Of a DNA stretch of 64,000 nt, positions 52,203 through 54,879 are shown piece by piece (the first letter of the stretch is position 1; each line of letters starts with the position of its first letter). The notes under the pieces are model-generated. The model was not told the DNA's origin, made no database searches, and was given only the letters and a program-made list of their open reading frames with translations. Location of the stretch: positions 218 to 64,217 of the forward strand of contig MNVC01000019.1 of NCBI GenBank assembly GCA_001871435.1, written 5' to 3'. The DNA comes from Candidatus Magasanikbacteria bacterium CG1_02_32_51 (GTDB lineage Bacteria > Patescibacteriota > Patescibacteriia > Magasanikbacterales > UBA922). Both the position numbers and the translations under genes were made by a program.

Positions 52203-52994
52203 ATGCCAGTAGTATTTGCAACCATTACACCACATCCACCAATTTTAATAGAAGGCATTGGTAAAGGTAAAAAAAGTATTATCAATAAAACAGTAAATTC
52301 ACTTATTAAAATTGAAGAAGATTTATATATTAGTAAACCTGATGTTATTGTGGTGATTTCTCCACATAGTGATATTTTTGATAATGTTTTTTCTGTCAAT
52401 TTATGCGAAAATTTTGTTTCTAATTATGAAAAATTTGGAGATTTTTCTACTCAAAATTCCTGGACAGGAGAAATCATCTTGCCCTATATCCTAAAAGAAA
52501 AAGCTTATGAAAGAAATATACCAGTTCAACTTTTGACTGAACACAAATTAGATCATGGTACTTCAATACCTTTGGTGACCCTTGCCTCACATTTACAAAA
52601 TATAAAAATCTTACCAATTGGCAATGCCAACTTAGAGCCAAAATCACAATTGGAATTTGGACAATTATTATATGACATTTTTTCTAATTCTGAAAAACGT
52701 ATAGCCATAGTGGCTTCGGCTGATTTATCTCATTCTCTTAATAACAACTCACCAGCTGGCTTTCATAAAGCTGGCCAAGAATTTGATGAAAAAATAATAG
52801 AATTATTAGAAGCACACAATACTGTTGGTATTACCCAAATAGATAGTAAAATTATAAAAGATTCCAACCAATGTGGTTATAATTCTATATTAATTTTACT
52901 TGGCTGTCTCAAAAATATAAATTATACTTTCAAAAATTTATCCTATGAAACTGTGTTAGGCGTTGGTTACCTAACTGGTGAATTTATATTTTGA
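52203..52994 (+). CDS. class III extradiol dioxygenase subunit B-like / Memo-like protein (LigB/DODA superfamily)
   Basis: ITPHPPIL, VISPHSD and ASADLSHSL motifs match metal-binding regions of the superfamily. Confidence 0.45.
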   Translation: MPVVFATITPHPPILIEGIGKGKKSIINKTVNSLIKIEEDLYISKPDVIVVISPHSDIFDNVFSVNLCENFVSNYEKFGDFSTQNSWTGEIILPYILKEKAYERNIPVQLLTEHKLDHGTSIPLVTLASHLQNIKILPIGNANLEPKSQLEFGQLLYDIFSNSEKRIAIVASADLSHSLNNNSPAGFHKAGQEFDEKIIELLEAHNTVGITQIDSKIIKDSNQCGYNSILILLGCLKNINYTFKNLSYETVLGVGYLTGEFIF

Positions 52995-54879
52995 TGTGAT
53001 TTTAAAAATAATACCTCTTACTAGACTACCTAGAGCTTTTTCTACTTTTGATTATCAAATAAACGAAGAATTGAAAACTTCAGTAGAAATTGGTCAATTG
53101 GTAAAAATTTCTTTCCGCAATAAAGAAATCTTTGGGGTTATTTTTGATATTGAAAAAAATTCAGAAAATGAAAAACTAAAATGTCTTATAGAAATAGTAA
53201 ATGAAATACCAATACTAAACAAAAAACAATTACATCTTTATATACAGCTAGCTGAAATATATTTAGTCTCTCCTTCAACTTTTTTGAAGATGGCTTTGTG
53301 CCCTTTACAAAAAAGAAAATTAAAAAAAATGATATTAAAAAAAGAAAAACCAAATATCAAAAAAGAAAAACCAAACCAAGAATACTATCTTTATAATTCA
53401 GAACACGAGCATAAAAAATTATACAAAAATCTAAAAAAAACAACTTTAATTATTGTACCAGAAATCTGGAAAATAGAAGAAATAAAAAAATATTTACCAC
53501 AAAAATTACAAACAAAAGTTGTCACTTGGTATGCCGAATTGAGTAATAAAGAAAAATTTGAAAATTGGTTACAAATAAAAAAAGAAGAAGAAACTATTGT
53601 TATAGGCACTAGAAATGCTCTTTTTTTACCCTTCAACAATTTGGACAAAGTGATTATAGATTATGAACATGATGAAAATCTAAAAAGCTGGGACAGTAGC
53701 CCAAAATTTCAAAGCAAAGATATTGCAAAATTTTTACAAAAATTATATTCTTGTGATTTAATATTTAGTAGTTTTTCTCCTAGTTTTGAAAAATATTATG
53801 AGATAAGTAAGGGAACAATTAAAATAAATAAAAAAATGACAAAAGACAGATTGCTTTTTAAAAGAAAAAAAATAAATGAAAAAAACTTACCAATTATTAT
53901 AAATTTCACAAATAAAGATTTTTTTAAAAACAAAAATATCTTTTCTTTAGAATTAGAAGATAAGATAAAAAACTCAAAAGAAGATGTTTTTATATACCTA
54001 AATAGAAAAGGTTATGCTACTAGTGTTACTTGTATGAATTGCAACTTTGTAGAGTCTGACCCCCTTACAGGGTTGCCATTAATTTACAAAAAAGAACAAA
54101 ACATACTCTATTCACCTTATAACAATTTTATCAAACCATTATCTGCTACTTGTCCAAAATGCAATAGTGAATTAACTAAAATGTATGGCTATGGTACAGA
54201 GTTGGTAGAATCTGAACTTAAAAAATTACTAAATACAAACACTAATCACAATATTATTAACATTGACAAAAATACTGACTTATCAAAGTTTTCTGAAGAT
54301 AAACAAAATATTATAATTGGAACAATCGCCGCTTTCAAATCTATAAATTGGATGAAAACTGAACTTATTGTTTTCTTAGATATAGACCGACAACTAGCTA
54401 TACCAGAATATTTATCAACAGAAAACATTTGGCACAACATACAAGAAGTAGAATATTATAGAAGAACAGATAGTAAATTCTATATTCAATCCAACAAAGC
54501 TGAACATACTATTTTCAAATCTCTAGGTGAAAAAGATAGGATATATAGGACAGACCTGAACAATAGACAGAAACTTGGTTTATTTCCTTACAAATATATA
54601 GTAAAATACTACTATGGTGGTGACAACGAAGGACAAAGCAAATTCCAAATAGAACAGACTATCAAGAATCTAAATTTAGCATTGACAAAAATCTCAAATA
54701 ATGTTACTATTCTTGGTCCTTATGAGATGCAACCAAAATATTTTAGAAGAAAATATTGGTACAGTTTTGCCATTAAAATTGCTGAAAAAAATCCCTTTCT
54801 AGTTATAAGACAAATAAATCAATTTATACCAGGTAACCATAAAATAGATCCTAACCCAATTAGTTTGCTTTCACCTTAA
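52978..54879 (+). CDS. priA: PriA (primosomal protein N') homolog with degenerate helicase ATPase motifs (Walker A absent; DEEH reads DYEH)
   Basis: N-terminal 3'-binding domain [15 protein letters not shown] (E. coli PLPRTFDY); [45 protein letters not shown] (E. coli [32 protein letters not shown]); zinc-binding CMNCN...CPKCN. The position where GSGKT is expected reads YNSEHEHKK. Followed by def and fmt, as in the conserved priA-def-fmt order. Confidence 0.6.
   Translation: [633 protein letters not shown]

What the first reader, a model, noticed from the sequence alone, without database searches (positions are those of the whole stretch)
52978..54879. PriA homolog whose helicase ATPase motifs are ablated (candidate pseudo-helicase) in conserved priA-def-fmt synteny
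The 633-aa protein aligns by eye with E. coli PriA across the 3'-binding domain ([14 protein letters not shown]), motif Ia (LIIVPEI), motif II surroundings ([33 protein letters not shown]), the Cys4 zinc-binding insert (CMNCN...CPKCN) and C-terminal segments. It is followed by def and fmt as in many bacteria. The position where the Walker A box GSGKT should be reads YNSEHEHKK. The DEEH box reads DYEH, so the catalytic Glu is replaced by Tyr. Motif VI is weak (YYRRT). A PriA that binds forks but cannot hydrolyse ATP would change how replication restart works in this lineage. A small DciA/DUF721-like protein is also encoded at 25081-25380.
Basis: partly seen in the sequence, partly recalled or inferred. 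Interest (0 to 1): 0.65.

Follow-up and report, generated by a model that had tools for sequence, protein, structure and literature searches.

The report
ATPase-dead PriA in a CPR bacterium
This gene is a real, conserved copy of the bacterial replication-restart protein PriA that has lost the parts needed to burn ATP. The same loss is already known in Deinococcus, but here it is shared by a whole lineage of ultra-small (CPR) bacteria.

Summary
ORF 52978-54879 (+), whose real start is probably GTG 52996, is the PriA ortholog of a Candidatus Magasanikbacteria (Patescibacteria/CPR) genome. It sits in a conserved Memo/LigB-priA-def-fmt block.

- **Lost:** Aligned to E. coli PriA, the P-loop GVTGSGKT is replaced by [8 protein letters not shown]. 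DEEH reads DYEH, so the catalytic Glu321 is lost. SAT reads SFS, and QVAGRAGR reads EVEYYRRT. The winged-helix domain and the inner Zn site of the Cys-rich region are also absent.
- **Kept:** The 3'-end-binding pocket and the DNA-contacting motifs Ia, Ib, IV and V are conserved. An AlphaFold model (pLDDT 87.5) matches fork-bound E. coli PriA at TM 0.81.
- **Shared:** 172 of 173 family sequences lack GK[ST].
- **Selected:** dN/dS is 0.08-0.25 in every region, so this is neither a pseudogene nor an artefact.

The best reading is a PriA pseudohelicase. It would recognise abandoned forks and act as a scaffold for DnaB reloading, probably with the DciA encoded at 25081-25380, without ATP-driven unwinding. 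The concept has a biochemical precedent in Deinococcus radiodurans PriA (Lopper 2015) and in E. coli priA300. This is therefore a new, more radically degenerate member of a known kind. ATPase-dead PriAs also turned up in other Patescibacteria and other phyla.

The parts
52978..54879 (+). priA ortholog, ATPase-dead. It is 633 aa from GTG 52978. The real start is more likely GTG 52996, giving 627 aa.
   Evidence: ORF listing. TIGR00595 scores 236 bits. The PDB sequence search hits only PriA. The start codon argument rests.
52996..53298 (+). 3'-DNA-binding domain (3'BD), residues 7-107. The pocket residues F24-D25-Y26 and K68 correspond to E. coli F16-D17-Y18 and K61.
   Evidence: PF17764 scores 57.5 bits. 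In the family, Tyr is kept in 164 of 164 ungapped rows and Lys/Arg in 158 of 165.
53299..53328 (+). Conserved basic linker [10 protein letters not shown], residues 108-117. It sits where longer PriAs carry the winged-helix domain, which is absent here.
   Evidence: P109, K112 and K114 are invariant in the 26-sequence alignment A2 (Q111 and L115 are nearly invariant there), and P109, Q111, K112, R113, K114 and L115 are all invariant in the 7-sequence A4. The winged-helix columns are gaps in A1 and A3.
53380..53424 (+). Former motif I (Walker A), [15 protein letters not shown], residues 135-149. The P-loop GxxGxGKT is replaced by a 3-residue turn between strand 134-138 and helix 142-147.
   Evidence: Alignments. 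172 of 173 family members lack GK[ST]. Secondary structure and pLDDT of 92-95 come from the AF2 model.
53446..53466 (+). Motif Ia, LIIVPEI, retained. This is a DNA-contact motif.
   Evidence: The position of E. coli P253 is Pro in 164 of 173 and E254 is Glu in 133 of 173.
53602..53625 (+). Motif Ib, IGTRNALF, retained.
   Evidence: The position of E. coli R304 is Arg in 158 and Lys in 10 of 173.
53653..53676 (+). Former motif II (Walker B, DExH), IIDYEHDE. Asp, the second Glu and His are kept, but the catalytic Glu is replaced by Tyr229.
   Evidence: In the family, D320 is kept in 135 of 173, E321 in only 14, E322 in 156 and H323 in 80 (with numbering fixed in the text).
53767..53784 (+). Former motif III, SSFSPS. 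SAT has become SFS.
54031..54162 (+). Cys-rich region. The outer Zn site is kept (C352, C355, C392, C395). The inner site is lost: D361, T364, S379 and N382 replace E. coli C445, C448, C463 and C466.
   Evidence: The inner Cys are kept in about 141-149 of 173 family members but are lost in the window's sub-lineage.
54310..54342 (+). Motif V region, [11 protein letters not shown]. The Thr is kept.
   Evidence: The position of E. coli T539 is Thr in 170 of 173.
54439..54468 (+). Former motif VI, [10 protein letters not shown]. The arginine-finger motif QxxGRxGR is gone.
   Evidence: No conserved Arg occupies the R584 or R587 positions.
54556..54876 (+). PriA C-terminal domain, ending in the conserved tail [11 protein letters not shown].
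   Evidence: This domain aligns to PDB PriA up to window residue 594. The AF2 model is confident here. R530 and P537 are invariant.
52203..52994 (+). Upstream LigB/Memo-family gene, part of the conserved block.
   Evidence: PF02900 scores 107.7 bits. It is syntenic in 51 of 51 loci.
54911..55483 (+). def (peptide deformylase).
   Evidence: PF01327 scores 163 bits. It lies downstream of priA in 43 of 51 loci, and several of the rest are truncated.
55623..56639 (+). fmt (methionyl-tRNA formyltransferase).
   Evidence: PF00551 and PF02911 match. Synteny is shown.
25081..25380 (-). DciA, the ancestral DnaB helicase operator and the likely partner for helicase reloading.
   Evidence: PF05258 scores 58 bits against a cutoff of 24.

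Best explanation
This is the single-copy PriA ortholog of a Magasanikbacteria (Patescibacteria) genome, and it has become a pseudohelicase.

It keeps the PriA architecture: the 3'BD, two RecA-like lobes, a Cys-rich insertion and the C-terminal domain. It also keeps the residues that hold DNA, namely the 3'-end pocket and motifs Ia, Ib, IV and V. It has lost everything needed to bind and hydrolyse ATP: the P-loop, the catalytic Glu of DExH, motif III, and the arginine fingers of motif VI.

Proposed mechanism (inferred): it recognises an abandoned fork through the 3'BD and grips the parental and lagging-strand DNA with the inert helicase core. It then serves as a static platform that recruits DnaB, directly or through DciA, onto lagging-strand template that is already single-stranded or SSB-coated. 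It does not unwind a nascent lagging strand and does not use PriB, DnaT or PriC.

Shown here: orthology, fold, motif loss, lineage-wide conservation and purifying selection. Inferred: absence of ATPase activity, fork binding, and DnaB/DciA recruitment.
For: **Orthology**
- TIGR00595 scores above its cutoff, and PriA_3primeBD matches.
- Only PriA chains are hit in the PDB by sequence.
- By fold, the AF2 model (pLDDT 87.5, pTM 0.89) matches 8fak_H, fork-bound E. coli PriA, with Foldseek E 1.5e-41 and TM 0.81.
- The block orf468-Memo/LigB-priA-def-fmt is conserved in all 51 loci tested, apart from truncated contigs and a few loci lacking def or fmt.

**Motif loss**
- Alignments to E. coli PriA show it.
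- 172 of 173 family sequences lack GK[ST] at Walker A, and the catalytic E321 is kept in only 14 of 173.
- There is no P-loop in any frame of the locus.

**DNA-binding elements kept**
- Y18 164 of 164, K61 146 plus 12 Arg, P253 164, R304 158, R427 144, T539 170.

**Selection**
- NG86 dN/dS is 0.08-0.25 for the whole gene, and 0.18 for the unsaturated pair L007/L008.
- It is 0.07-0.2 in each domain, including both ex-helicase lobes.

**Breadth**
- 48 GTDB species representatives carry the gene. Most of those with an informative title are Magasanikbacteria.

**Precedent**
- D. radiodurans PriA lacks ATPase and helicase activity but binds forks and DnaB (PMC4504706).
- E. coli priA300 (K230R) is ATPase-dead yet restart-proficient through PriA-PriB (PMC5778457).
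- DciA is encoded in the window and has been proposed to act with PriA at forks (PMC9825169).
Against: - No biochemical data exist for any member, so loss of ATPase is inferred from motifs.
- The whole genome could not be scanned, so a second, intact PriA paralog is not excluded. Intact PriAs do exist in other Patescibacteria.
- In E. coli, PriA helicase activity is needed for some pathways (PriA-PriC, Mu transposition). A helicase-free PriA would therefore need forks whose lagging arm is already single-stranded, or another helicase to clear it.
- Several residues at the former ATP site are conserved (Y at G224 in 138 of 173, E at G229 in 110, E322 in 156). The pocket may therefore have a function that this model does not explain.
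- No DnaB or SSB gene lies in the window to support the partner assignments.
Confidence: 0.72

Rival explanations
1. Neofunctionalised PriA derivative. The protein still binds branched DNA but no longer starts replisome reloading. It might protect or mark stalled forks, or the rebuilt Tyr/Glu/His-Asp/Glu/His pocket might bind a different ligand or metal that regulates it.
For: - Conserved new residues sit at the former ATP site: Y139 is nearly invariant, E143 is Glu in 110 of 173, and E230 in 156 of 173.
- PriA diverges faster than its neighbours. Across the more distant loci, L011-L052, priA is 26-42% identical against mostly 42-63% for def and 43-61% for fmt.
- The winged-helix domain and one Zn site are lost.
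Against: - The 3'BD pocket, the C-terminal domain and the DNA-contact motifs are retained.
- The gene stays at the ancestral priA-def-fmt position.
- The Deinococcus precedent shows an ATPase-dead PriA that still binds forks and DnaB (PMC4504706).
- I detected no new domain.
Confidence: 0.15
2. Accessory paralog. The genome also encodes an intact PriA helicase elsewhere, and this copy is a degenerate duplicate with a subsidiary role.
For: - Intact PriAs of about 650-670 aa occur in other Patescibacteria: Torokbacteria P0219, Parcubacteria P0267 and P0353, and several 'Patescibacteria group' entries.
- Only 64 kb of this genome was available.
Against: - This copy occupies the ancestral priA-def-fmt slot in every Magasanikbacteria locus.
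- None of the named intact hits is from Magasanikbacteria.
- Only one PriA-like locus lies in the window.
- From general knowledge, CPR genomes are about 1 Mb and rarely keep paralogs of replication genes.
Confidence: 0.07
3. Still an active ATPase/helicase that uses a non-canonical nucleotide site.
For: - The older literature discusses a second, weaker nucleotide site in E. coli PriA (PMC5778457).
- In some family members a Lys or Arg occupies the K230-aligned column (38 Lys, 31 Arg).
Against: - There is no Gly-rich loop. The modelled P-loop is shortened to 3 residues.
- The catalytic Glu and both motif VI arginines are absent.
- The single change K230R already kills E. coli PriA ATPase (PMC5778457).
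Confidence: 0.03
4. Pseudogene, frameshift or assembly artefact.
For: I found no positive evidence. The basis is only that DEAD and Helicase_C score below their Pfam thresholds.
Against: - The ORF is uninterrupted.
- The same architecture occurs in more than 170 independent clusters and 48 species representatives.
- dN/dS is about 0.1-0.2 in all regions.
- The full-length AF2 model is confident.
Confidence: 0.01

Closest known systems
Deinococcus radiodurans / Deinococcus-Thermus PriA pseudohelicase (Lopper, Boone & Morrow 2015, PMC4504706)
   Same: Both are PriA orthologs whose Walker A and Walker B motifs depart from consensus. The rest of the protein is retained. The Deinococcus protein binds ssDNA, forks and DnaB without ATPase or helicase activity.
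   Different: - Deinococcus-Thermus proteins keep a recognisable P-loop with Lys changed to Arg. Here the P-loop is erased (YNSEHEHK) and motifs III and VI are gone as well.
- This protein also lacks the winged-helix domain and half of the Cys-rich Zn sites.
- It comes from a different phylum. Because intact PriAs persist in other Patescibacteria, I infer an independent loss.
- No biochemistry exists for this protein.
E. coli PriA K230R (priA300) and K230A/D variants
   Same: These are ATPase-, helicase- and translocase-dead PriAs that still assemble primosomes and support restart in vivo through PriA-PriB (PMC5778457).
   Different: They are engineered point mutants in a PriB/DnaT/DnaC organism. 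The window's genome encodes DciA, and the PriB-docking residues of the E. coli Cys-rich region (D438, T482, H483) are N354, E398 and L399 here.
Canonical PriA (TIGR00595 / PRK05580; PDB 4NL4, 6DGD, 8FAK)
   Same: The domain order is the same: 3'BD, lobe 1, lobe 2 with the Cys-rich insertion, then the C-terminal domain. The fold matches at TM 0.81 to 8fak_H. The gene sits in priA-def-fmt synteny.
   Different: There is no winged-helix domain and no motif I, III or VI. The catalytic Glu is lost. Only one Cys4 site remains. Identity to E. coli PriA is about 23-25%.
Short intact PriAs without a winged-helix domain (for example Holosporales P0340; Patescibacteria P0219 and P0267)
   Same: They have a similar length (about 640-675 aa), lack the winged-helix domain, and some come from the same superphylum.
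   Different: They retain GxGKT, DEEH/DEEQ, SAT and QxxGRxxR.

Membership tests
PriA (replication restart protein, TIGR00595/PRK05580) | N-terminal 3'-DNA-binding domain with a 3'-end pocket (E. coli F16, D17, Y18, K61) | tested here: met
   PF17764 scores 57.5 bits against a cutoff of 22.7. F24, D25, Y26 and K68 align to the pocket residues and are conserved in the family.
PriA (replication restart protein, TIGR00595/PRK05580) | Whole-protein profile score above the curated equivalog cutoff | tested here: met
   TIGR00595 scores 236.2 bits against 230.35, only just above. All PRK05580 sub-models score far below their cutoffs.
PriA (replication restart protein, TIGR00595/PRK05580) | Two RecA-like lobes plus a C-terminal domain in the PriA arrangement | tested here: met
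   The AF2 model has pLDDT 87.5. Foldseek's top nine hits are all PriA, with TM up to 0.81. Pfam PriA_C alone is sub-threshold at 14.7 bits against 26.9.
PriA (replication restart protein, TIGR00595/PRK05580) | Cys-rich region with two Cys4 zinc sites inserted in lobe 2 | tested here: not met
   Only the outer four Cys are kept (C352, C355, C392, C395). The inner four are D361, T364, S379 and N382. About 141-149 of the 173 family members keep each inner Cys.
PriA (replication restart protein, TIGR00595/PRK05580) | SF2 ATPase motifs I (GxGKT), II (DExH) and VI (QxxGRxGR) | tested here: not met
   They read [8 protein letters not shown], DYEH and EVEYYRRT. Pfam DEAD and Helicase_C score below their cutoffs.
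PriA (replication restart protein, TIGR00595/PRK05580) | DNA-contacting helicase motifs Ia, Ib, IV and V | tested here: met
   [22 protein letters not shown] and IIIGT are conserved across the family.
PriA (replication restart protein, TIGR00595/PRK05580) | Winged-helix domain between the 3'BD and lobe 1 (present in E. coli-type PriA, not universal) | tested here: not met
   About 100 residues are absent and replaced by a 26-residue basic linker. The domain is also absent from intact short PriAs.
PriA pseudohelicase (Deinococcus-Thermus type, PMC4504706) | PriA ortholog with non-consensus Walker A and Walker B catalytic residues | tested here: met
PriA pseudohelicase (Deinococcus-Thermus type, PMC4504706) | No ATP hydrolysis and no duplex unwinding in vitro | not testable with these tools
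   This needs purified protein. It is inferred from the complete loss of the P-loop, the catalytic Glu and the Arg fingers.
PriA pseudohelicase (Deinococcus-Thermus type, PMC4504706) | Retained ssDNA and fork binding, and interaction with DnaB | not testable with these tools
   Only indirect evidence is available: conservation of the 3'BD pocket and the DNA-contact motifs.
PriA pseudohelicase (Deinococcus-Thermus type, PMC4504706) | Common descent with the Deinococcus-Thermus proteins (same loss event) | not tested
   No Deinococcus sequence was in hand. Intact PriAs in other Patescibacteria argue for an independent loss.

The most novel reading that the evidence does not exclude
Loss of PriA's motor is not a Deinococcus oddity. 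It is recurrent and, in parts of the Patescibacteria, lineage-wide. ATP-independent, DciA-era replication restart would then be the normal mode for a sizeable slice of bacterial diversity.

In the Magasanikbacteria clade the empty nucleotide pocket may not simply have decayed. It may have been rebuilt into a conserved Tyr/Glu/His (ex-Walker A) plus Asp/Glu/His (ex-Walker B) cluster. That cluster could bind a metal, or lock the two lobes in the closed, fork-bound conformation, mimicking a permanently 'loaded' state. The AF2 model resembles fork-bound 8FAK more closely than apo PriA.
Probability: 0.2. Interest if true: 0.65.

Novelty: new member of a known kind. Interest (0 to 1): 0.42.

Why it matters
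[quoted passage not shown] This locus and the searches built on it show otherwise.

- A whole candidate phylum, Magasanikbacteria, carries a PriA stripped of every ATP-handling motif. This covers at least 150 clusters at 50% identity and 48 species representatives. The gene is still under purifying selection.
- Differently degenerate PriAs occur in other lineages: Parcubacteria, Falkowbacteria, Aminicenantes, Dictyoglomus and Elusimicrobiota.

This supports the idea that fork recognition and scaffolding, not unwinding, is PriA's core function. It also offers naturally minimised proteins of about 620 aa, with no winged-helix domain and one Zn site. These could be used to define the minimal restart machinery and its link to DciA-dependent DnaB loading. 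It does not introduce a new principle, because the Deinococcus protein and priA300 already established that restart can work without PriA ATPase.

Tried and rejected
- **Hidden P-loop or frameshift.** A six-frame regex search of 52700-55000 found nothing. Rejected.
- **First P-loop regex.** My pattern [AG]xxxxGK[ST] reported 0 of 173. It missed P0219 (EVTGSGKT), which a looser pattern and inspection of the alignment exposed. The corrected figure is 172 of 173. P0219 is an intact Torokbacteria PriA that the profile pulled in.
- **The search for related loci with the 26-sequence alignment** failed for lack of a conserved stretch. A 7-sequence alignment worked, but its patterns are specific to the Magasanikbacteria clade. 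The 48 loci therefore do not measure breadth outside that clade.
- **Neighbour-joining tree of 58 PriAs**. Dead sequences group loosely, which is probably long-branch attraction, and there is no bootstrap. The number of independent losses is unresolved. The exception is P0265, a dead sequence nested among intact CPR-like sequences, which implies at least one extra loss.
- **SSB-tail-binding residues.** I tried to map them from memory, but the residue numbers did not match the E. coli sequence. I dropped this and make no claim.
- **Literature on PriA in CPR/Patescibacteria.** The searches found nothing relevant.
Whether the conserved Glu, His and Asp residues cluster in space could not be checked.
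- **A second PriA copy** could be tested only within the 64-kb window, not genome-wide.
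Full report
**1. What is at the coordinates**

The ORF at 52978-54879 (+) encodes 633 aa from a GTG. The window has about 30% G+C. The protein is 99.7% identical to an NCBI entry named 'primosomal protein N'' from a Candidatus Magasanikbacteria MAG. NCBI places that group in Candidatus Magasanikiibacteriota, within the Parcubacteria and Patescibacteria groups.

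The first six codons overlap the upstream gene. Orthologs start [M/V]-I-[A/L]-K-I-I-P, and in the closest relatives the start codon is also GTG. A GTG lies at 52996, two bases after the upstream stop at 52992-52994. The real product is therefore probably 627 aa. I keep the 633-aa numbering below.

**2. Is it PriA?**

- Pfam finds only the PriA 3'-DNA-binding domain above threshold (57.5 bits). DEAD (13.9), Helicase_C (17.7) and PriA_C (14.7) are all sub-threshold.
- NCBIfam's priA equivalog TIGR00595 scores 236.2 bits, just above its 230.35 cutoff.
- A sequence search of the PDB hits only PriA chains (E about 1e-28), with a collinear alignment over residues 155-594.
- An AlphaFold2 model built on 26 family sequences is confident: mean pLDDT 87.5 and pTM 0.89.
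- In the Foldseek search of the PDB, the top nine hits are all PriA. The best is 8fak_H, E. coli PriA in the PriA/PriB/fork complex, at E 1.5e-41 and TM 0.81. Apo or ADP-bound PriA structures score TM 0.63-0.69. The next family, Mfd, scores only TM 0.36.
- The gene is flanked upstream by a LigB/Memo-family gene and downstream by def and fmt.
- The block orf468-Memo-priA-def-fmt(-Wzy_C) recurs in essentially all 51 related loci examined, apart from truncated contigs and a few loci lacking def or fmt.

Orthology to PriA is therefore secure.

**3. The motif losses**

I took E. coli K-12 PriA from NC_000913.3 and aligned it with the window protein, family members and intact PriAs.

| E. coli PriA | Window protein |
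|---|---|
| Motif I, G224-V-T-G-S-G-K230-T | Y138-N-S-E-H-E-H-K |
| Motif Ia, LVMVPEI | LIIVPEI |
| Motif Ib, IGTRSALF | IGTRNALF |
| Motif II, D320-E321-E322-H323 | D228-Y229-E230-H231 |
| Motif III, SAT | SFS |
| Motif V, IGTQ | IGTI |
| Motif VI, Q-V-A-G-R584-A-G-R587 | E-V-E-Y-Y-R-R-T |

- In the model, strand 134-138 is joined to helix 142-147 by only three residues, at pLDDT 92-95. The phosphate-binding loop is physically gone, not merely mutated.
- I found no P-loop-like pattern in any of the six reading frames of 52700-55000. Intact PriA queries find only this one locus in the 64-kb window.
- The roughly 100-residue winged-helix domain of E. coli-type PriA is absent. A 26-residue basic linker takes its place, and its core P-L-Q-K-R-K-L-K-K is almost invariant in the family.
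- E. coli has eight Cys in the Cys-rich region. Only the outer four survive here (C352, C355, C392, C395). The inner four are D361, T364, S379 and N382.

**4. Is it an accident of one genome?**

No. A profile of 26 family sequences was searched against 1.84 billion 50%-identity representatives. It returned 23,847 hits at E ≤ 0.001. The 150 listed scored 459-930 bits, most of them matched over essentially the full length at about 600-665 aa.

- Of the 173 family sequences in hand, 172 lack GK[ST] at the Walker A position. The exception, P0219, is an intact Torokbacteria PriA that the profile pulled in. My first regex gave 0 of 173 and was too strict.
- **ATP-handling residues are lost.** The catalytic E321 is Glu in only 14 of 173. 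The R584 and R587 columns carry no conserved Arg.
- **DNA-handling residues are kept**:

| E. coli position | Kept in the family |
|---|---|
| Y18 (3'BD pocket) | 164 of 164 ungapped |
| K61 | 146 Lys plus 12 Arg |
| P253 | 164 |
| R304 | 158 |
| R427 | 144 |
| G429 | 164 |
| T539 | 170 |

- From established knowledge of SF2 helicases, motifs I, II and VI bind and hydrolyse NTP, III couples, and Ia, Ib, IV and V contact nucleic acid. This is the pattern expected for a protein that still grips DNA but has no motor.
- Some new residues at the old ATP site are themselves conserved. Tyr occupies the G224 column in 138 of 173, Glu the G229 column in 110, and His/Lys/Arg the K230 column in 133. D320 is kept in 135 and E322 in 156.

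**5. Selection**

I made codon alignments of the window gene with six close orthologs taken from GTDB-representative contigs.

- Nei-Gojobori dN/dS is 0.08-0.25 for the whole gene. dS is near saturation for most pairs. The unsaturated pair L007/L008 gives 0.18.
- By region, for the two closest comparisons, the window against L005 and L006:

| Region | dN/dS |
|---|---|
| 3'BD | 0.09-0.13 |
| Lobe 1, ex-motifs I-III | 0.09-0.11 |
| Cys-rich region | 0.20 (L005 only; dS saturated for L006) |
| Lobe 2, ex-motifs V-VI | 0.12-0.13 |
| C-terminal domain | 0.11-0.15 |

- Only the short basic linker is sometimes higher. The degenerate lobes are therefore maintained as folded structure, not decaying.
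- PriA is nonetheless the fastest-evolving gene of its block. Across the more distant loci, L011-L052, priA is 26-42% identical, def mostly 42-63%, fmt 43-61%, and the Memo-like gene mostly 38-51%. Intact Patescibacteria PriAs are 45-50% identical to Clostridia PriAs. This is consistent with relaxed constraint after the motor was lost.

**6. Taxonomic picture**

- A scan of GTDB species representatives, using patterns specific to this clade, found 48 loci. Most of those with an informative title are Magasanikbacteria, with a few 'Patescibacteria group' and one 'Paceibacteria'. Many MAGs titled 'uncultured Gammaproteobacteria' carry the same synteny block and are evidently mis-titled.
- A second protein search shows other Patescibacteria groups with differently degenerate PriAs:
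  - Parcubacteria P0225: 'LFDKNLKQT' and 'YNSSS'.
  - Falkowbacteria P0258 and P0262: 'IIGTPAERY' and 'EEEQS'.
  - Also P0263, P0252 and P0347.
- Degenerate PriAs also turn up outside the superphylum: Aminicenantes P0063, Dictyoglomus P0077 and Elusimicrobiota P0306.
- Many other Patescibacteria keep a fully intact PriA of 650-675 aa, for example P0219, P0267 and P0352-P0356.
- An unbootstrapped NJ tree does not resolve how many losses occurred. One dead sequence, P0265, nests among intact CPR-like ones, so there was more than one loss.

**7. Mechanism**

**Shown:** this is a PriA-fold protein with conserved DNA-binding elements and no ATPase site. It is conserved across the lineage and under purifying selection.

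**Inferred:** it recognises abandoned forks through the 3'BD pocket and holds the DNA arms with its inert helicase core. It then nucleates DnaB reloading without unwinding.

Support by analogy:
- D. radiodurans PriA has no ATPase or helicase activity. It still binds ssDNA (Kd about 215 nM) and forks (about 109 nM), and it interacts with DnaB (PMC4504706).
- E. coli priA300 (K230R) is ATPase-dead but close to wild type in vivo and active in restart in vitro. Helicase activity is needed only for the PriA-PriC route and some special cases (PMC5778457).
- The window encodes DciA at 25081-25380 (-) (PF05258, 58 bits). DciA has been suggested to act together with PriA at forks (PMC9825169).
- The residues of the E. 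coli Cys-rich region that dock PriB (D438, T482, H483; PMC10175261) are N354, E398 and L399 here. This fits a PriB-independent route.

**8. Rivals**

| Rival | My probability | Comment |
|---|---|---|
| Neofunctionalisation away from restart | 0.15 | Cannot be excluded |
| Intact paralog elsewhere in the genome | 0.07 | Cannot be excluded with the data available |
| Non-canonical ATPase | 0.03 | Very unlikely |
| Pseudogene or artefact | 0.01 | Refuted |

**9. Novelty**

The kind of thing, a PriA pseudohelicase, is known from Deinococcus-Thermus. I found no paper in the searchable library that describes it for CPR/Patescibacteria. The 2018 review treats Deinococcus as the sole exception.

This is therefore a new member of a known kind, more extremely reduced than the precedent. 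The useful by-product is the observation that loss of the PriA motor is recurrent and, in Magasanikbacteria, lineage-wide. Interest is moderate. It would be worth a note to replication-restart specialists, and it supplies a natural minimal PriA for biochemistry, but it is not a new principle.

Noticed in passing
window 52978-52998: The annotated GTG start at 52978 overlaps the upstream gene by 17 nt. A second in-frame GTG at 52996, 2 nt after the upstream stop, matches the N-termini of orthologs ([M/V]I[A/L]KIIP). The public 633-aa annotation is probably 6 codons too long.
   Followed up: yes
window 54911-55483 and 55623-56639: The def ORF (190 aa) and fmt ORF (338 aa), as listed mechanically, are longer at the N-terminus than the called orthologs (166 aa and 314-316 aa). 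The true starts are probably the internal Met codons (MLEVITIP..., MQKTKIIFFGT...).
   Followed up: partly
This genome therefore uses the ancestral DnaB operator, not DnaC or DnaI.
   Followed up: yes
window 26037-28988 (-): A 983-aa UvrD-type helicase is fused to a PD-(D/E)XK nuclease (AddA-like). It lies 140 bp downstream of a methyltransferase and close to dciA. It may be the motor that processes forks or ends in a cell whose PriA cannot unwind.
   Followed up: no
window 60593-61171 (-); also L001 16599-17177 and L003 15057-15638: A Translin-family protein (PF01997, 77 bits) is conserved in synteny in related Magasanikbacteria. From my own knowledge, Translin is mainly a eukaryotic and archaeal nucleic-acid-binding family and is unusual in bacteria.
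   Followed up: no
window 31761-38416 (-): A fused Complex1_30kDa and 49kDa (NuoCD-like) subunit sits with a Proton_antipo_M subunit. This suggests a membrane-bound hydrogenase or Mrp-like module in a CPR genome, next to an F-type ATP synthase operon (39599-43636).
   Followed up: no
window 50787-52193 (+): This 468-aa protein has a hydrophobic N-terminus and no Pfam match. It lies two genes upstream of priA in 49 of 51 related loci, so it is a lineage-specific conserved unknown.
   Followed up: partly
loci L011, L015, L016, L019, L024, L026-L029, L031-L034, L036, L037, L043, L045-L048, L050-L052: GTDB-representative MAGs titled 'uncultured Gammaproteobacteria' carry the Magasanikbacteria-type dead priA and the same synteny block. 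The record titles are evidently placeholders or errors. One of them, OZ246405.1, is a 1.23-Mb complete chromosome that would be ideal for a whole-genome check.
   Followed up: partly
proteins P0063, P0077, P0306, P0225, P0252, P0258, P0262, P0263, P0265, P0271, P0347: PriAs with ablated Walker A and Walker B motifs, each with a different replacement sequence, occur in Aminicenantes, Dictyoglomus, Elusimicrobiota, Falkowbacteria and other Parcubacteria. Other Patescibacteria (P0219, P0267, P0352 and later) keep intact motifs. Loss of the motor looks recurrent.
   Followed up: partly
window 54844-54876 and 53299-53328: Two short family-specific conserved elements have no known role. One is the C-terminal tail [11 protein letters not shown], in which L631 and P633 are nearly invariant. 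The other is the basic linker PLQKRKLKK, which replaces the winged-helix domain.
   Followed up: no
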